Source: a virus (lineage: Duplodnaviria > Heunggongvirae > Uroviricota > Caudoviricetes). From it: a stretch of DNA of 5,058 nucleotides. The position numbers were made by a program, and so were the translations under genes. Numbering within the stretch: the stretch's first letter is position 1; every line of letters starts with the position of its first letter. A model generated the notes under the pieces. That model was not told the DNA's origin. It worked only from the letters and a program-made list of their open reading frames with translations, and made no database searches. Positions 1-5,058 of the stretch are shown one piece after another. The DNA lies in IMG/VR virus record IMGVR_UViG_2693429560_000008; one strand, written 5' to 3'.

Positions 1-25
1 GGGAAAAATATCATCAGATGGCTGC

Positions 26-214
26 TTAAAAAAAGAACAAATGGTAGTGTCCGCTATTGCCAGTACACCTCAGGGTATAAGGGGTTATGGCCACCGGACT
101 ACCAAACGGCTGCCAGCCCTCTTTCAGTTTATGTGTCAGCTTTTCCGCAAGATCTGACGGCGGCGCCGCCCTGACAACATCATAGTGTTTAAATGCCATG
201 GTTCTTTCCACCAT
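26..214 (-). CDS. small prophage protein, possibly DUF1737-like
   Basis: Minus-strand ORF from the track. The second in-frame ATG (197-199) follows a GGAAAG RBS-like sequence, so the true start is probably 199 (MAFKHYDVV..., 57 aa). The stretch LAEKLTHKLKEGWQPFG resembles the short phage DUF1737 family from memory only. Confidence 0.45.
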   Translation of the reverse strand: MVERTMAFKHYDVVRAAPPSDLAEKLTHKLKEGWQPFGSPVAITPYTLRCTGNSGHYHLFFF

Positions 215-392
215 CTGAAAAATAATTCTTTAAAATACCTGACATGTAATACAGAAAAAACACAAAACCATACCTTAAATAAAAACCTGATTATCAAGCA
301 GATATGCATGGATAAACTACAAGACGAGATATAAACCACCCTGCATTTAAATAAACAATAAACAACATCAGAAAAATAATTCTGCTCTATGG

Positions 393-419
393 TTTACATT
401 CAAAAATATCATTTATACT
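393..419 (+). promoter_or_regulatory. putative sigma70-type promoter for the 111-aa ORF
   Basis: -35 TTTACA (393-398) and -10 TATACT (414-419) with a 15-nt spacer, about 40 nt upstream of ATG 460, in an AT-rich intergenic region. The short spacer makes this tentative. Confidence 0.3.
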
Positions 420-459
420 TTTCAGAACATCACCAGCAAGGCATAAACAAGGAAACTAA

Positions 460-795
460 ATGAAGTGGATTGTGATTGATACAGTTATCCAGCCATCATG
501 CGGAATATCTTTTTCAGTCATATGGAGTAAAATAAAATTAATAATCTGGTATCAATCGGATGCTTTCTTACCTCCTGAAAGTATATTTACACTGACTCAC
601 ACAGGCATCATGCTCAATAACAAAGTGCTACCTGTAACCATTTACAACGTAGTACCATTCAATAAAACATTCTGGAATTCAATCAAAAATAGCCAGGAAT
701 GCCCTACAAATACAGATAACGTATTGAATGAATGCTTTAATAACCGTTGCACTCTGCAAATATGTCCTTATGGACTAAAACAACAAAGTCCATAA
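460..795 (+). CDS. hypothetical protein, 111 aa, AT-rich cargo gene (copy 1)
   Basis: 336-nt ORF open in strongly AT-rich DNA where stops should be frequent. AGGA lies 6 nt before the ATG. An identical copy sits at 1834-2169. Five Cys residues; no family recognised. Confidence 0.5.
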
Positions 796-814
796 GGAGT
801 TTACTCACATCTGA

Positions 815-851
815 CAAAATCAATATAAACAGCCCCTCCGGAGAGGGGCTG
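815..851 (-). terminator. intrinsic terminator-like hairpin, minus-strand orientation
   Basis: Perfect 9-bp GC-rich stem (830-838 with 843-851) and 4-nt loop. On the minus strand it is followed by the U-rich run GUUUAUAUUGAUUUUG. Confidence 0.4.
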
Positions 852-1046
852 GAGAGTGGCGCTATGTGCCATTGCATGGTGCCGGGTGCCTCCCGGTGAA
901 TTCAGTACCAGCACCTGAATCCGCGATTATCCCATATACCTACTCGCTGATTGCCCCTCCGCACAGGGGGATTCACCATGCCAGTTTCTTTTAACAAACT
1001 CCCCGCAAAACAGACAACTGTCAACCGTCTGAATTGTGAGACATTT

Positions 1047-1072
1047 AAAAAAAAGGCCCGCAAAAGCGAGCC
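1047..1072 (-). terminator. intrinsic terminator just downstream of the copy-1 tRNA cluster
   Basis: On the minus strand: stem GGCUCGC, loop UUUU, stem GCGGGCC (one G-U pair), followed by eight U. Lies in the 36-bp copy-1-specific spacer; absent from copy 2. Confidence 0.5.
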
Positions 1073-1086
1073 AGGGAAAATAAGTG

Positions 1087-1163
1087 TGGCGCGTTGTACT
1101 GGATTCGAACCAGTGACCGATTGCTTAGAAGGCAATTGCTCTGTCCGGCTGAGCTAACAACGC
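1087..1163 (-). tRNA. argO: tRNA-Arg, anticodon TCT (copy 1)
   Basis: 77-nt cloverleaf folded by hand from the reverse complement: acceptor GCGTTGT/ACAACGC, T-loop TTCGAAT, anticodon loop CTTCTAA, encoded CCA. Symbol assigned from the Stx-phage ileZ-argN-argO order, from memory. Confidence 0.85.
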
Positions 1164-1176
1164 ATGATGCAGATAA

Positions 1177-1253
1177 TGGACCGCCATCGGGGACTTGAAC
1201 CCCGCGCAGCCAGCTTCGAAGGCTGGCGCTCTTTCCTGATGAGCTAATGGCGG
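1177..1253 (-). tRNA. argN: tRNA-Arg, anticodon TCG (copy 1)
   Basis: 77-nt cloverleaf: acceptor CCGCCAT/ATGGCGG, D-stem GCTC/GAGC, anticodon stem CCAGC/GCTGG with loop CTTCGAA, T-loop TTCAAGT, encoded CCA. Unusual C1-G72 first pair. Symbol from cluster order, less certain. Confidence 0.75.
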
Positions 1254-1260
1254 TATGTGA

Positions 1261-1336
1261 TGGTGGCCCTTGCTGGATTTGAACCAGCGACCTGGCGATT
1301 ATGAGTCGCTCGCTCTCACCACTGAGCTAAAGGGCC
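1261..1336 (-). tRNA. ileZ: tRNA-Ile2, anticodon CAT (lysidine type, reads AUA), copy 1
   Basis: 76-nt cloverleaf GGCCCTTTAGCTCAGTGG...CTCATAA...GGTTCAAATCC...AAGGGCCACCA, very close to E. coli ileX-type tRNA-Ile2 as recalled. Anticodon loop CTCATAA. Confidence 0.85.
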
Positions 1337-1376
1337 GGGAGCCGCATAATAACGACGCGTAATTAATTCTTCAATA

Positions 1377-1743
1377 TCATCCGTTCTGGCTGACTAAATC
1401 CTGTACTTCCCGAACCGTCTGCTCAAAACGTTCAGTCTCCAGCTCAACGCCAATTGCACGACGCCCGAGCGCCAGTGCCGCTTTCACTGTCGAACCCAAC
1501 CCCATGAAAAAATCTGCAATCAGGTCACCCGGACGACTGCTAGCGCTGATTATCTGCTGCAGCATTTCTGCCGGTTTTTCGCACGGATGTTTCCCGGGAT
1601 AGAACTGCACCGGTTTATGCGTCCACACATCGGTATACGGCACCTGCACCGTCACGCCAAAATACCGCCGCAGATGTTTATATTCACTCAGCAGCTCCGC
1701 ATACTGCCGGTTCAGTGAGGTATACGTATCCACCAGCTGGTGG
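1377..1743 (-). pseudogene. 3'-terminal fragment of the N6-adenine DNA methyltransferase gene
   Basis: Encodes only the last ~122 codons of the 352-aa protein (the 118-aa track ORF begins at an in-frame GTG at 1731-1733), identical to the full copy. Keeps the FxGxG AdoMet motif but lacks the N-terminal DPPY catalytic motif. Broken at 1743/1744 where block A copy 2 begins. Confidence 0.8.
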
Positions 1744-1766
1744 AGAAAAATAATTCTGCTCTATGG

Positions 1767-1793
1767 TTTACATTCAAAAATATCATTTATACT
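1767..1793 (+). promoter_or_regulatory. putative promoter for the 111-aa ORF, copy 2
   Basis: Identical to 393-419: TTTACA, 15 nt, TATACT. Confidence 0.3.
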
Positions 1794-1833
1794 TTTCAGA
1801 ACATCACCAGCAAGGCATAAACAAGGAAACTAA

Positions 1834-2169
1834 ATGAAGTGGATTGTGATTGATACAGTTATCCAGCCATCATGCGGAATATCTTTTTCAGTCATATGGA
1901 GTAAAATAAAATTAATAATCTGGTATCAATCGGATGCTTTCTTACCTCCTGAAAGTATATTTACACTGACTCACACAGGCATCATGCTCAATAACAAAGT
2001 GCTACCTGTAACCATTTACAACGTAGTACCATTCAATAAAACATTCTGGAATTCAATCAAAAATAGCCAGGAATGCCCTACAAATACAGATAACGTATTG
2101 AATGAATGCTTTAATAACCGTTGCACTCTGCAAATATGTCCTTATGGACTAAAACAACAAAGTCCATAA
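1834..2169 (+). CDS. hypothetical protein, 111 aa, AT-rich cargo gene (copy 2)
   Basis: Identical to the ORF at 460-795. Confidence 0.5.
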
Positions 2170-2188
2170 GGAGTTTACTCACATCTGA

Positions 2189-2225
2189 CAAAATCAATAT
2201 AAACAGCCCCTCCGGAGAGGGGCTG
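2189..2225 (-). terminator. intrinsic terminator-like hairpin, copy 2
   Basis: Identical to 815-851. Confidence 0.4.
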
Positions 2226-2449
2226 GAGAGTGGCGCTATGTGCCATTGCATGGTGCCGGGTGCCTCCCGGTGAATTCAGTACCAGCACCTGAATCCGCGA
2301 TTATCCCATATACCTACTCGCTGATTGCCCCTCCGCACAGGGGGATTCACCATGCCAGTTTCTTTTAACAAACTCCCCGCAAACCAGACAACAGTCAACC
2401 GCCTGAATTGTGAAGTATTTAAAAATTTCTCCCGCTAACTGATACCCGG

Positions 2450-2536
2450 CTAACAGTCTGGCGTTTTCTTTTTCAGCAACGGGAAAGCAACAACCACCAC
2501 ACCCGCCACCAGCACACCGTCAGCCAGCACTGACAT
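2450..2536 (-). CDS. possible 28-aa hydrophobic peptide
   Basis: Hand translation of the minus strand gives ATG...TAG: MSVLADGVLVAGVVVVAFPLLKKKTPDC, one hydrophobic stretch then KKK. No convincing RBS; could be a chance ORF in GC-rich low-complexity sequence. Confidence 0.15.
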   Translation of the reverse strand: MSVLADGVLVAGVVVVAFPLLKKKTPDC

Positions 2537-2616
2537 TATCCGGCTGCTGCAATGCCATTCACAAAAACAGTAAGCAATCACTTTTTACCGTAACAGGTGA
2601 TAATCCAGATATGTAT

Positions 2617-2970
2617 CTACCCCAGATGAGTAATCCGAAGTTCATCCATACCACAGGTCCTGGCTATTCTGTTGTACTCCTGAACAAGAGCAAATAATTC
2701 TGAATTAGCAACCATGAACTCATCGCAAACCCTCTGTATAGCATCACTATTCAGAATAATAACGTCTCTTCCCGAAAGACGATCAGGAGTACAGAACAAA
2801 ACTGTCAAACGGCTGAAGGCCTTTGCTCGTGCTGCATTGACTATATCAATACGCTGCCTAAGGATGAAACACCCCGACGCCTCATCAATATTCACTCTAC
2901 CCACACCATATGAATGATAAATATTTAATGCTGAAAAAACCATTAGACCGTATAACAAACACTCAATCAA
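2617..2970 (-). CDS. hypothetical protein, 108-117 aa, copy-2-specific cargo
   Basis: Minus-strand ORF from the track, which begins at a TTG. The first ATG is at 2941-2943 (MVFSALNIYHSYG...). Weak RBS. Lies directly downstream of the tRNA cluster in the slot where Stx phages carry stx, but has no resemblance to Stx A or B. Confidence 0.4.
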   Translation of the reverse strand: MIECLLYGLMVFSALNIYHSYGVGRVNIDEASGCFILRQRIDIVNAARAKAFSRLTVLFCTPDRLSGRDVIILNSDAIQRVCDEFMVANSELFALVQEYNRIARTCGMDELRITHLG

Positions 2971-3080
2971 TACTTAACAGAACTTTTATTTTTGACAAAC
3001 ATAAAATATTTTCAACAATATCCTGAGCCAGGTATATTTCAGTATAAGGCTCTGCCGGAAGGAATCTGGAAGAATGAATA

Positions 3081-3157
3081 TGGCGCGCTGTACTGGATTC
3101 GAACCAGTGACCGATTGCTTAGAAGGCAATTGCTCTGTCCGGCTGAGCTAACAACGC
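3081..3157 (-). tRNA. argO: tRNA-Arg, anticodon TCT (copy 2)
   Basis: Same as 1087-1163 except tRNA position 69 is G instead of A, turning the U4-A69 pair into a U4-G69 wobble. Confidence 0.85.
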
Positions 3158-3170
3158 ATGATGCAGATAA

Positions 3171-3247
3171 TGGACCGCCATCGGGGACTTGAACCCCGCG
3201 CAGCCAGCTTCGAAGGCTGGCGCTCTTTCCTGATGAGCTAATGGCGG
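3171..3247 (-). tRNA. argN: tRNA-Arg, anticodon TCG (copy 2)
   Basis: Identical to 1177-1253. Confidence 0.75.
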
Positions 3248-3254
3248 TATGTGA

Positions 3255-3330
3255 TGGTGGCCCTTGCTGGATTTGAACCAGCGACCTGGCGATTATGAGT
3301 CGCTCGCTCTCACCACTGAGCTAAAGGGCC
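3255..3330 (-). tRNA. ileZ: tRNA-Ile2, anticodon CAT (copy 2)
   Basis: Identical to 1261-1336. Confidence 0.85.
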
Positions 3331-3370
3331 GGGAGCCGCATAATAACGACGCGTAATTAATTCTTCAATA

Positions 3371-4429
3371 TCATCCGTTCTGGCTGACTAAATCCTGTAC
3401 TTCCCGAACCGTCTGCTCAAAACGTTCAGTCTCCAGCTCAACGCCAATTGCACGACGCCCGAGCGCCAGTGCCGCTTTCACTGTCGAACCCAACCCCATG
3501 AAAAAATCTGCAATCAGGTCACCCGGACGACTGCTAGCGCTGATTATCTGCTGCAGCATTTCTGCCGGTTTTTCGCACGGATGTTTCCCGGGATAGAACT
3601 GCACCGGTTTATGCGTCCACACATCGGTATACGGCACCTGCACCGTCACGCCAAAATACCGCCGCAGATGTTTATATTCACTCAGCAGCTCCGCATACTG
3701 CCGGTTCAGTGAGGTATACGTATCCACCAGCTGGTGGTGGAGCTTTTCCAGTTCACCACGCCGATGCTTCTCTTCTGCCACCCGGGCAAACAGCGCCTGT
3801 AATTTCAGATAATCGCTTTCATTCGGCAACTGCCACTGACCGGCACTGAACCAGTGCGACACCATGTTTTTCTTTCCTGTGGCATCTGCAATCTGTTTTG
3901 CCGTTATCCCCAGGGCAGCTCGCGCATCACGAAAGTAAGAAATCAGCGGGGCCATCACATGCTGTTTCAGTGCACTGCCCTTCGCCGCATACCCGGCATC
4001 TTTCGGACGATACGGCCCCTGATAATGTTCCGCGAACAGAATGCGCTCTGTGGCGGGGAAATACGCCCGCAGGCTTTCCTTGTTGCATCCGTTCCAGCGT
4101 CCGGACGGCTTCGCCCAGATAATATGGTTCAGCACACTGAAGCGTTCACGCATCATGATTTCGATATCAGATGCCAGGCGATGACCACAGAACAGGTAAA
4201 GACTTCCGGCAGGTTTCAGCACCCGCCAGAACTGCGCCAGACACTGGTCCAGCCACTTCAGGTAATCATCGTCGCCCTTCCACTGGTTATCCCAGCCCTC
4301 AGGCTTCACTTTAAAGTACGGCGGGTCCGTGACTATCAGGTCAACAGAATTTTCGGGTAACGACCGGATAAATTCCAGGCAGTCGGCGTTGATTAACTCA
4401 CAACTGGATATTTTTACAGTATTAAGCAT
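3371..4429 (-). CDS. N6-adenine DNA methyltransferase, beta-class, apparently orphan
   Basis: 352-aa ORF. Catalytic motif DPPY near the N-terminus (LIVTDPPY) and AdoMet-binding motif DFFMGLGST near the C-terminus; that motif order defines beta-class amino-methyltransferases. No restriction endonuclease partner in the window. Confidence 0.9.
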   Translation of the reverse strand: MLNTVKISSCELINADCLEFIRSLPENSVDLIVTDPPYFKVKPEGWDNQWKGDDDYLKWLDQCLAQFWRVLKPAGSLYLFCGHRLASDIEIMMRERFSVLNHIIWAKPSGRWNGCNKESLRAYFPATERILFAEHYQGPYRPKDAGYAAKGSALKQHVMAPLISYFRDARAALGITAKQIADATGKKNMVSHWFSAGQWQLPNESDYLKLQALFARVAEEKHRRGELEKLHHQLVDTYTSLNRQYAELLSEYKHLRRYFGVTVQVPYTDVWTHKPVQFYPGKHPCEKPAEMLQQIISASSRPGDLIADFFMGLGSTVKAALALGRRAIGVELETERFEQTVREVQDLVSQNG

Positions 4430-4461
4430 GGATCATTAAGCCTGTCTCTGATAGGCTCATT

Positions 4462-4551
4462 CTGCTTTTGCGCAAAGCAGTGGGCCTGAGGTTTGCTTGT
4501 GAACCCAACGCATGAGCAGATGGCTGGTGGGTGCCCCTAACACCCACCAGC
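4462..4551. promoter_or_regulatory. inverted repeats in the leader upstream of the methyltransferase gene
   Basis: Perfect 11-bp inverted repeat GCTGGTGGGTG / CACCCACCAGC (4523-4533, 4541-4551) with a 7-nt spacer, and a 7-bp inverted repeat CTGCTTT / AAAGCAG (4462-4468, 4474-4480). Neither is followed by a U-tract on either strand. Confidence 0.3.
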
Positions 4552-4565
4552 CGCCCATTTACCAC

Positions 4566-4593
4566 AAATAAAAAAGCCTTCACTGCGGAAGGC
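4566..4593 (-). terminator. intrinsic terminator after the 65-aa gene
   Basis: Minus strand: stem GCCUUC, loop CGCAGU, stem GAAGGC, followed by UUUUUUAUUU. The stem overlaps the stop codon of the 65-aa ORF. Confidence 0.5.
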
Positions 4594-4777
4594 GTCTGTA
4601 ACAACCGAACTGATAGTCTGCCAGACCCGCCATAACCAGCTGGGTCAGTATTAACTGGCAGCGTTCGCGTGAAAGGTAAGTATTCTGCGCTATCTCCCCG
4701 ACTGTCGCCGGTTCGGTAACGCTTAATTCATTAAACACCACTCTGGCGGTTTCTGTCATATCCTGCTGTTTTAGCAT
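4580..4777 (-). CDS. small putative DNA-binding protein, 65 aa
   Basis: AGGA sits 6 nt upstream of the ATG. The pattern TVGEIAQNTYLSRERCQLILTQLVMAGL is helix-turn-helix-like and weakly resembles FaeA/PapI-type winged-helix regulators, from memory. Confidence 0.5.
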   Translation of the reverse strand: MLKQQDMTETARVVFNELSVTEPATVGEIAQNTYLSRERCQLILTQLVMAGLADYQFGCYRRLPQ

Positions 4778-4896
4778 GTCTTTTCCTTTTCCGGTTAACG
4801 TGACACACCAATAACTCTTGTCGAAAAAGCCAGCAAGCTGAAAGACAGGTATTCACCGCCACCAGCGCGTTTACTGTACTGACGCGATTTCAGTCA

Positions 4897-4920
4897 TAAA
4901 AAACCCGCTCGGCGGCGGGT
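4897..4920 (-). terminator. tR'-like intrinsic terminator
   Basis: Minus strand: stem ACCCGC, loop CGCCGA, stem GCGGGU, followed by UUUUUU. About 65 nt downstream of the putative pR'. Confidence 0.55.
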
Positions 4921-4968
4921 TGTAGAAACTCTTCTAACGTCAGGCATAAAACGCCCATCGTTATGACG

Positions 4969-4996
4969 AATTTACCACAGATTCCGGAAAAATCAA
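4969..4996 (-). promoter_or_regulatory. pR'-like late promoter
   Basis: Minus strand: -35 TTGATT (plus 4991-4996), 16-nt spacer, extended -10 TGgTAAATT (plus 4969-4977). It sits between the end of the upstream ORF and the tR'-like terminator, the layout expected for a lambdoid pR'/tR' unit. Confidence 0.4.
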
Positions 4997-5001
4997 CCTT
5001 G

Positions 5002-5058
5002 TTACCTAGTTACCTTTTTTAACTGCCGCTCAGCCCATGCTTCTTCAATATCAAACCG
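5002..5058 (-). CDS. 3' end of an upstream minus-strand gene, possibly the Q antiterminator (partial)
   Basis: Two minus-strand frames stay open to the window edge: one ends ...RFDIEEAWAERQLKKVTR with stop at 5002-5004, the other ...GLILKKHGLSGS with stop at 5019-5021. The frame cannot be resolved. Identity is inferred only from position upstream of the pR'-like promoter. Confidence 0.2.
   Translation of the reverse strand, partial: RFDIEEAWAERQLKKVTR

What the first reader, a model, noticed from the sequence alone, without database searches (positions are those of the whole stretch)
460..795. Duplicated AT-rich cargo ORF of unknown function, antisense to phage late transcription
The 111-aa ORF is far more AT-rich than the methyltransferase, and an open frame of that length is unlikely by chance in such DNA. 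It has its own candidate promoter and RBS, is convergent with the late operon, and is shielded from it by a minus-strand terminator-like hairpin (830-851). It is present twice, so it is a dosage-amplified accessory gene. I recognise no family; this is one of the two best candidates in the window for something undescribed.
Basis: partly seen in the sequence, partly recalled or inferred. Interest (0 to 1): 0.6.

Follow-up and report, generated by a model that had tools for sequence, protein, structure and literature searches.

The report
Known RpoS-stabilising gene iraL; duplication doubtful
The AT-rich 111-codon gene is iraL, an already characterised prophage-borne inhibitor of the RssB adaptor that protects the stress sigma factor RpoS from degradation, and its apparent second copy is most likely a draft-assembly artefact.

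Summary
The ORF at 460-795 (+) is real, and an identical copy sits at 1834-2169. It is not undescribed. It is IraL: 110 of 111 residues match the experimentally characterised CFT073 protein, and the exact sequence is the Shigella sonnei allele. It scores 162 bits on NCBIfam NF007393 (anti-adapter IraM; cut-off 121) and is 61% identical to K-12 IraM, whose complex with RssB is solved (8TWD). The gene does lie opposite to late transcription of a lambdoid prophage, next to the slot that holds stx in Stx phages. A conserved minus-strand terminator-like hairpin lies at 830-851. IraL binds the RssB receiver domain, blocks delivery of RpoS to ClpXP, and raises RpoS in growing cells (published for CFT073 and S. 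sonnei). The duplication is doubtful. The window is a perfect mosaic of two single-copy loci of complete S. sonnei chromosomes. The novel joint (1743|1744) is absent from 5,426 complete E. coli genomes. In the only other contig with this layout, that joint carries the contig's single 'N' and the crossover falls elsewhere. Verdict: already known, low interest.

The parts
460..795 (+). iraL coding sequence (111 aa plus stop), copy 1
   Evidence: ORF list. NCBIfam NF007393 scores 162 bits against a cut-off of 121. It is 99% identical to CFT073 IraL and 61% to K-12 IraM. PDB 8twd_A matches at E=6e-31. The exact sequence is named IraM in Shigella sonnei.
393..427 (+). iraL sigma-70 promoter: -35-like TTTACA at 393-398, -10 TATACT at 414-419, TSS A427
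   Evidence: The 5'-RACE mRNA end ACATCACCAGCAAGGCATAAACAAGGAAAC reported in PMC4045071 matches window 427-456. Upstream DNA is identical to CFT073 apart from one base at -1. The hexamer assignment is my inference.
427..459 (+). 33-nt 5' UTR with Shine-Dalgarno AAGGAA at 449-454
   Evidence: Read from the sequence with the published TSS.
830..851 (-). GC-rich hairpin, terminator-like on the minus strand, between iraL and the incoming late/tRNA-side transcription
   Evidence: Terminator scan. An identical stem with a better T-tract lies between stx2B and the iraM-like ORF in Stx2a phage AP012536. Function is inferred.
1834..2169 (+). second, identical iraL copy in the window, with promoter retained from -57; probably the same genomic gene written twice by the assembler
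   Evidence: Window 1744-3157 is 100% identical to the single S. sonnei 53G iraL locus, as is window 1-1009.
1743..1744 (.). novel joint between an internal point of the methyltransferase gene and position -57 of the iraL promoter (ggtgg|agaaaaat); suspected scaffold join
   Evidence: Absent from 5,426 complete E. coli genomes and from GTDB representative genomes. In contig L015 the only non-ACGT character lies exactly here, as ggtggNCagaaaaat.
1377..1743 (-). 3' fragment of the DNA methyltransferase gene (a duplicate of 3371-3737), created by the joint
   Evidence: This 118-aa product is on record in only 3 short contigs.
1087..1336 (-). phage tRNA cluster (Arg-TCT, Arg-TCG, Ile2/Met-CAT); second copy at 3081-3330
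   Evidence: ARAGORN. The same ileZ-argN-argO cluster precedes stx2A in Stx2 phages.
3371..4429 (-). phage N6/N4 DNA methyltransferase (context: late-operon side, downstream of Q)
   Evidence: Pfam PF01555 at E=8e-42. Synteny with O104:H4 and Stx2a phages.
1..72 (.). end of an IS element that truncates the DUF1737/nanS-p gene (ORF 26-214, minus strand)
   Evidence: 100% matches next to IS3-family transposase genes at several sites in S. sonnei loci. DUF1737 hit.

Best explanation
The ORF is iraL, an IraM-family anti-adaptor carried as a moron by a (here IS-decayed) lambdoid prophage of Shigella sonnei. It is transcribed from its own constitutive sigma-70 promoter (TSS at window 427). Its direction opposes the Q-dependent late operon (Q - methyltransferase - tRNAs - [moron slot] - nanS-p - lysis genes). 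The small PmrD-like beta-barrel protein binds the N-terminal receiver domain of the adaptor RssB, so RssB cannot hand sigma-S (RpoS) to ClpXP. RpoS is therefore stabilised during exponential growth and the general stress regulon is primed. The 830-851 hairpin probably stops minus-strand transcripts (from the tRNA/DUF3927 side, or unmodified RNA polymerase) from running antisense into iraL. The apparent tandem duplication is not a biological dosage amplification. The 5-kb contig is a chimeric walk through two separate S. sonnei prophage remnants that share short exact repeats, closed by an unsupported scaffold join. What is shown: the gene's identity, the family match, the promoter/TSS correspondence, the synteny and the mosaic structure of the window. 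What is taken from the literature: RssB binding, RpoS stabilisation, and expression at RNA and protein level. What is inferred: the hairpin's role and the artefact mechanism.
For: Identity. NCBIfam NF007393 scores 162 bits against a cut-off of 121. The protein is 110/111 identical to CFT073 IraL, 61% to K-12 IraM and 72% to a Stx2a-phage paralogue. PDB 8twd_A (IraM in complex with RssB) matches at E=6e-31 over residues 1-78 without gaps. The exact sequence is named IraM in S. sonnei and Shigella generally. RefSeq annotates IraM at at least 80% coverage in 1,425 complete E. coli genomes. dN/dS between paralogues is 0.09-0.15.

Function, from PMC4045071. IraL copurifies with RssB and interacts with its N-terminal domain in two-hybrid assays. 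Deleting iraL lowers log-phase RpoS in CFT073 and in S. sonnei and halves RpoS half-life. iraL with 100 nt of upstream DNA raises RpoS in K-12. The 5'-RACE end matches window 427-456.

Consistency with the IraM-RssB structure (PMC10844676). All 5 cluster-I residues that contact the RssB N-terminal domain are identical in IraL. Clusters II and III, which contact the C-terminal domain and the linker, are partly substituted: T13S, L75I, H63N, I64V. This fits N-terminal-domain-only binding.

Expression. iraL (c1429) mRNA rises 1.6 log2 at 37 C (PMC12890032), and IraL protein rises in a fur mutant (PMC7157518).

Context. The order Q - methyltransferase - tRNAs - DUF3927 - iraL (opposite strand) - nanS-p - holin - lysozyme is seen in O104:H4 and CFT073.

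Artefact. Window 1-1009 and 1744-3157 are 100% identical to the single iraL locus of S. sonnei 53G. Window 880-1743 and 3089-5058 are 100% identical to the single methyltransferase locus of the same chromosome, about 0.8 Mb away, which has no iraL. The joint is absent from 5,426 complete E. coli genomes. The joint-specific ORF is on record in only 3 short contigs, whereas IraL and the methyltransferase each appear in more than 4,000 blocks of the collection. Contig L015 has the same layout, but its only 'N' lies exactly at the joint, the joint sequence differs by 2 nt, and the locus-1/locus-2 crossover falls at a different tRNA repeat.
Against: No experiment was done on this exact allele (S74 instead of L74, next to contact residue 75), although the S. 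sonnei gene was the one deleted in PMC4045071. My AlphaFold model was poor (mean pLDDT 60), so the fold was not independently confirmed; the only significant PDB hit was still 8twd_A, at low TM-score. My scan of the 2025 Pfam-A gave no hit, although the collection's precomputed table labels these proteins PF11183 (PmrD). For the artefact reading, the same overall layout appears in at least two draft contigs. A single N could be an ambiguous base rather than a gap. I could not inspect reads. Complete Shigella genomes could be reached only through exact-protein look-ups, which showed one context per chromosome but are not a whole-genome copy count.
Confidence: 0.9

Rival explanations
1. The gene is iraL, and the tandem arrangement is real. 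In a small S. sonnei sublineage an illegitimate join plus recombination between the two prophage remnants produced two expressed iraL copies, doubling anti-adaptor dose.
For: Both copies are intact with identical coding sequence and keep the core promoter from -57. The same layout is seen in an independent draft contig, L015. Two iraL copies in one strain have a precedent (JJ1886, on separate loci) in PMC4045071.
Against: The joint is absent from all 5,426 complete E. coli genomes and from GTDB representatives. No S. sonnei chromosome returned showed it. Every base of the window is accounted for by two single-copy loci at 100% identity. L015 has its only N at the joint, a joint sequence that differs by 2 nt, and a different crossover point, which is not expected of one inherited rearrangement. 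The duplicated spans are 640 and 649 nt, roughly the length expected if they arose by paired-read gap filling; that reading is my inference.
Confidence: 0.12
2. The protein is a PmrD-like connector that acts mainly on a response regulator other than RssB (for example PmrA), so it has a role different from RpoS stabilisation.
For: The IraM fold resembles only PmrD in the PDB (PMC10844676). The precomputed Pfam label is PF11183 PmrD. Some RssB C-terminal-domain and linker contact residues differ from IraM.
Against: A protein 99% identical binds RssB directly and changes RpoS stability. All five residues contacting the RssB N-terminal domain are conserved. The NCBIfam IraM model scores above its cut-off.
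Confidence: 0.03
3. The ORF is a chance open frame or a non-coding or antisense element in AT-rich phage DNA.
For: AT-rich composition; there is no hit in the current Pfam-A; PHROGs lists it as 'unknown function'.
Against: dN/dS is 0.09-0.15 across three paralogues. The frame is kept in 16 cluster representatives down to 53% identity. Protein was detected and genetic phenotypes are published.
Confidence: 0.01

Closest known systems
IraL of uropathogenic E. coli CFT073 (c1429; Hryckowian et al. 2014, mBio, PMC4045071)
   Same: The same gene: 110/111 residues, the same promoter and 5' UTR (two base differences, at -1 and between the SD and the ATG), and the same prophage neighbourhood (Q - tRNAs - DUF3927 - iraL on the opposite strand - DUF1737/nanS-p - lysis genes). 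The paper also deleted the S. sonnei gene.
   Different: One substitution (S74 instead of L74). In the window the methyltransferase lies between Q and the tRNAs, whereas CFT073 has an IS200 there. In the real S. sonnei iraL locus there is no methyltransferase either.
IraM of E. coli K-12 (b1160; PDB 8TWD with RssB)
   Same: A paralogue with 61% identity and the same length class. The N-terminal PmrD-like barrel (residues 1-78) aligns without gaps. Residues contacting the RssB N-terminal domain are identical, and the four C-terminal cysteines are conserved.
   Different: The promoters are unrelated (no similarity upstream of the SD). IraM is induced under Mg2+ starvation (PMC10844676), whereas IraL acts in unstressed log phase. 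IraM contacts both RssB domains, whereas IraL binds only the N-terminal domain in two-hybrid assays. The genomic site also differs: K-12 iraM lies beside e14.
IraM-like ORF next to stx2AB in Stx2a phages (e.g. AP012536, L013:3012-3335)
   Same: 72% identical, same orientation and same slot (between the terminator hairpin and nanS-p), and intact. RefSeq calls it IraM in 236 complete STEC genomes.
   Different: A third allele class, 107 aa long. It is not annotated in the phage GenBank record, and I found no functional study of it.
PmrD (PDB 4HN7), connector protein of the PhoPQ-PmrAB systems
   Same: The same unusual beta-barrel fold according to PMC10844676. Both bind a response-regulator receiver domain and raise its net phosphorylation.
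   Different: The target is PmrA, not RssB. There is no detectable sequence match in my scans. It is not involved in proteolysis control.
IraD and IraP (the other RssB anti-adaptors)
   Same: The same functional outcome: RssB is inhibited and RpoS is stabilised.
   Different: Unrelated sequences and folds, different RssB surfaces, and different inducing signals (literature, PMC3877760 abstract).

Membership tests
IraM/IraL anti-adaptor family (NCBIfam NF007393) | Full-length match to the curated family model above its cut-off | tested here: met
   162 bits against a cut-off of 121, covering residues 1-110 of 111.
IraL (the CFT073-type allele, as opposed to IraM) | At least 95% identity to CFT073 iraL over the whole coding region, the paper's own criterion | tested here: met
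   2 nt differences in 333 and 1 aa difference. Identity to K-12 IraM is only 61%.
IraL | The iraL-specific sigma-70 promoter and mapped transcription start | tested here: met
   The published 5'-RACE sequence matches window 427-456. The upstream 100 nt are identical to CFT073 except at -1. Copy 2 keeps only 57 nt upstream of the start.
IraM/IraL family | PmrD-like antiparallel beta-barrel plus a helix in residues 1-78 | tested here: inconclusive
   The sequence aligns to the solved IraM chain 8twd_A without gaps (E=6e-31). My AlphaFold model shows 7 strands and one helix, but mean pLDDT is 60. Foldseek finds only 8twd_A (E=7e-6, TM 0.37/0.46).
IraM/IraL family | Conservation of residues that contact RssB in the crystal structure | tested here: met
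   Cluster I is 5/5 identical. Cluster II is 3/5 identical with 2 conservative changes. Cluster III is 2/4 identical. P66 is identical.
IraM/IraL family | Physical binding to RssB and stabilisation of RpoS against ClpXP | not testable with these tools
   Published for the 99%-identical CFT073 protein and for an S. sonnei iraL deletion (PMC4045071). Not measured for this allele here.
Lambdoid-prophage moron | Independent promoter and terminator, divergent base composition, inserted within a phage operon and dispensable for the phage | tested here: met
   GC is 34.5% against 53% for the neighbouring methyltransferase gene. The gene has its own mapped TSS. A terminator-like hairpin is present. 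It lies between the tRNAs and nanS-p in otherwise syntenic prophages, some of which lack it, such as S. sonnei locus 2.
Genuine tandem gene duplication | A novel joint that is reproducible in independent, contiguous assemblies | tested here: not met
   0 of 5,426 complete E. coli genomes carry the joint, and GTDB representatives give 0 hits. The only other contig with the layout has an N and a different sequence at the joint.

The most novel reading that the evidence does not exclude
IraM-family genes may be a conserved cargo of the lambdoid 'stx slot'. An intact third paralogue lies convergent with stx2B in Stx2a phages. It is unannotated in the phage records, listed as 'unknown function' in PHROGs, and under purifying selection. 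Lambdoid prophages, Stx phages included, might therefore routinely reprogramme host RpoS proteolysis. The four invariant cysteines in the C-terminal tail (removed in the crystallised IraM construct) might add a metal- or redox-sensing input. For the finding itself, the residual novel reading is a real iraL tandem duplication in an S. sonnei sublineage.
Probability: 0.3. Interest if true: 0.4.

Novelty: already known. Interest (0 to 1): 0.1.

Why it matters
For the scan, this candidate can be closed: the 'undescribed cargo ORF' is a published and annotated regulator of RpoS stability. Two practical lessons follow. First, phage-oriented resources still list this family as 'unknown function' (PHROG 4407), and Stx-phage GenBank records leave the paralogue next to stx2B unannotated, so a reader using phage resources alone would miss a known host-physiology regulator. 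Second, copy-number claims drawn from short draft contigs of IS- and prophage-rich genomes such as Shigella need checking against complete genomes. Here the 'dosage amplification' disappears on inspection.

Tried and rejected
- Pfam-A scans at E<=0.01 and E<=10 gave no meaningful hit for IraL or for K-12 IraM. The PF11183 (PmrD) label in the precomputed tables could not be reproduced.
- The simple promoter scan did not find the experimentally mapped promoter.
- An exact search for the joint in GTDB representative genomes found nothing. This is weak evidence, because I expect Shigella to be represented there under E. coli rather than by its own genomes (my assumption, not checked).
- A phage-collection search found no record with the duplicated layout.
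- The AlphaFold2 model built on a 16-sequence alignment was poor (pLDDT 60), so the fold search is only weakly informative.
- Contig L016, which also encodes the 118-aa truncated methyltransferase, has a different interruption and says nothing about the joint.
- The word-indexed homologue search returned only Escherichia clusters, and the genome scan added one Citrobacter. Salmonella RssC was not recovered by either.
- I considered a PhoP-box reading of GGTTTA at 391-396 and dropped it. The iraL upstream region is unrelated to that of K-12 iraM, and the published data show stress-independent expression.

Full report
**Observation.** The window has an ATG-to-TAA ORF of 111 codons at 460-795 on the plus strand and an identical one at 1834-2169. 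Its GC content is 34.5%, against 53.2% for the methyltransferase gene at 3371-4429. In first-order Markov simulations of the 612-nt AT-rich island, a stop-free run of at least 111 codons appears in 1.4% of trials. Length alone is therefore only moderately unusual. Self-comparison shows two repeated blocks. Block A (370-1051) matches 1744-2425 at 99.1%, and block B (1075-1743) matches 3068-3737 at 99.3%. Six tRNA genes, as two copies of an Arg-TCT / Arg-TCG / CAT-anticodon trio, lie on the minus strand.

**Identity.** The product matches NCBIfam NF007393 'anti-adapter protein IraM' at 162 bits, above the curated cut-off of 121. It aligns without gaps to the solved IraM chain of the IraM-RssB complex, 8twd_A, at E=6e-31. 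RefSeq annotates the same DNA as IraM in 1,425 complete E. coli genomes at 80% coverage or more. Alignment shows 110/111 identity to the CFT073 protein, 72% to an ORF in a Stx2a phage and 61% to K-12 IraM. The CFT073 protein is IraL, described by Hryckowian et al. 2014 (PMC4045071). That paper reports 58.9% identity between IraL and IraM and places iraL on the potB island. I confirmed that this island is a complete lambdoid prophage. The exact window sequence is the allele named for Shigella sonnei and for Shigella generally in the protein collection. dN/dS between the three paralogues is 0.09-0.15, and the frame is kept in 16 cluster representatives down to 53% identity.

**Expression signals.** The paper's 5'-RACE end, ACATCACCAGCAAGGCATAAACAAGGAAAC, matches window 427-456. 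This gives a 33-nt leader with AAGGAA at 449-454, five nt before the ATG. A -10 TATACT lies at 414-419, and the best -35-like hexamer, TTTACA, lies at 393-398; the hexamers are my assignment. The 100 nt upstream are identical to CFT073 except at -1. The K-12 iraM upstream region is unrelated, which fits the published difference in regulation. iraL mRNA and IraL protein have been detected in CFT073 (PMC12890032 and PMC7157518).

**Context.** In O104:H4 and CFT073 the gene order is as follows:
- Q antiterminator
- (65-aa ORF, methyltransferase)
- tRNA-Ile2, tRNA-Arg, tRNA-Arg
- DUF3927
- iraL, on the opposite strand
- DUF1737/nanS-p esterase
- holin, lysozyme

The methyltransferase-tRNA block is the one that precedes stx2AB in Stx2a phages. 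In those phages an intact 107-aa IraM-like ORF sits convergent with stx2B, after the same hairpin. The hairpin at 851-830 (9 pairs, 7 GC, T-rich tail on the minus strand) is reported by the scan. Its stem is identical in the Stx2a phage, where the tail is TTTTTATC. Its role as a shield is plausible but inferred, and Q-modified polymerase would be expected to read through it.

**Mechanism.** The published work shows four things:
- IraL copurifies with RssB.
- It interacts only with the RssB N-terminal domain in two-hybrid assays.
- Deleting iraL lowers log-phase RpoS in CFT073 and S. sonnei and halves RpoS half-life.
- iraL under its own promoter raises RpoS in K-12.

The IraM-RssB structure (PMC10844676) defines three contact clusters. 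In the window protein:
- Cluster I, which contacts the 4-5-5 face of the receiver domain where sigma-S binds, is 5/5 identical.
- Cluster II, which contacts the C-terminal domain, carries T13S and L75I.
- Cluster III, which contacts the linker and helix alpha-8, carries H63N and I64V.

This pattern agrees with N-terminal-domain-only binding. The most likely mechanism is occlusion of the sigma-S site on RssB, so that RpoS escapes ClpXP.

**The duplication.** The joint at 1743|1744 links an internal point of the methyltransferase gene to position -57 of the iraL promoter. It is absent from all 5,426 complete E. coli genomes: every hit covers only one half of a 120-nt probe. It is also absent from GTDB representative genomes. 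The truncated 118-aa methyltransferase ORF created by the joint is on record in just three short contigs. IraL and the full methyltransferase are each listed in more than 4,000 blocks of the collection, including more than 90 with contigs over 1 Mb.

In the complete S. sonnei chromosomes returned, the two genes lie in different prophage remnants. In strain 53G these are at about 1.31 Mb and about 2.10 Mb. The iraL locus has no methyltransferase, and the methyltransferase locus has no IraL-like sequence by tblastn. Base-by-base comparison shows the window is a perfect mosaic of these two loci:

| Window segment | Identity | Source in S. sonnei 53G |
|---|---|---|
| 1-1009 | 100% | iraL locus |
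| 880-1743 | 100% | methyltransferase locus |
| 1744-3157 | 100% | iraL locus, used again |
| 3089-5058 | 100% | methyltransferase locus, used again |

The switches fall in exact shared repeats of 130 and 69 nt. The only other contig with this layout is L015 (GCA_900160015.1, 5,183 nt). Three features of L015 argue against a single inherited rearrangement:
- Its single non-ACGT character lies exactly at the joint (ggtggNCagaaaaat).
- Its joint sequence therefore differs from the window's by two bases.
- It switches loci at a different tRNA repeat.

The window also starts in an IS end and is only 5,058 nt long. I read it as a whole short draft contig bounded by repeats; that is my inference. 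I conclude that the second copy is most probably an assembly or scaffolding artefact, at about 85%, and that a real rare rearrangement is not excluded.

**Comparison and novelty.** The gene is IraL itself, so the finding is already known. It works like IraM, with a different promoter and a narrower RssB interface. It shares a fold with PmrD according to the literature. My own fold test was inconclusive because the model was poor.

**Side observations that may deserve a look:**
- The unannotated IraM-like ORF beside stx2B.
- Four invariant cysteines in the C-terminal tail, which was removed in the crystallised IraM construct.
- The 'unknown function' label of PHROG 4407.

**Verdict.** It is wrong about novelty, and probably wrong about duplication. 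Interest is low.

Noticed in passing
L013:3012-3335 (+) (Stx2a phage AP012536.1): An intact 107-aa IraM/IraL paralogue lies immediately downstream of and convergent with stx2B. It is 72% identical to IraL, with dN/dS 0.15. The phage record does not annotate it, but RefSeq calls it IraM in 236 of 5,426 complete E. coli genomes. I found no functional study.
   Followed up: partly
window 700-795 (IraL residues 81-105): Four cysteines (C81, C92, C97, C102, in a CP-x9/10-C-x4/5-C-x4-CP[YH]G pattern) are invariant in 16 family representatives down to 53% identity. The IraM structure paper removed this tail, describing it as less conserved and flexible. It may be a metal-binding or redox motif.
   Followed up: partly
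window 2617-2970 (-): A 117-aa ORF (108 aa from an internal start) matches phrog_2873, 'unknown function', at E=4e-70, with no Pfam or NCBIfam hit. It lies in the 642-nt segment found only in the second repeat unit, between DUF3927 and the tRNAs. It looks like a real phage gene family without a known role.
   Followed up: partly
window 2450-2581 (-): A 43-aa DUF3927 ORF matches phrog_1470 (TciB-like; inhibition of cell division or colicin resistance), another small moron candidate in the same slot.
   Followed up: no
window 1-72: The left end of the window is the terminus of an IS element. It has 100% matches beside IS3-family transposase genes at several S. sonnei sites. It truncates the DUF1737/nanS-p gene (ORF 26-214, minus strand).
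   Followed up: partly
window 1055-1072 (-): A strong intrinsic-terminator-like hairpin with a T8 tail lies just downstream of tRNA-Arg(TCT). It occurs only in the short 23-nt linker variant (S. sonnei locus 2 type). The variant carrying the 642-nt insert lacks it.
   Followed up: no
window 4580-4777 (-): A 65-aa ORF between Q and the methyltransferase matches phrog_331 (unknown function). It has a weak TrmB-like winged-helix hit, below the Pfam cut-off.
   Followed up: no
IraL protein (window 460-792) and homologues P0002-P0034: The collection's precomputed tables label these proteins PF11183 (PmrD). A direct hmmscan against the 2025 Pfam-A gave no PmrD hit even at E<=10, so the two Pfam versions appear to disagree.
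   Followed up: partly
L033:4001-4318 (CP178306.1) and L032 (Citrobacter sp. ANG330): Distant IraM-family relatives appear in the species-representative genomes: 32% identity in a record titled Escherichia coli strain ECGI0523 (CP178306.1), and 54% in a Citrobacter. Their genomic contexts were not examined.
   Followed up: no
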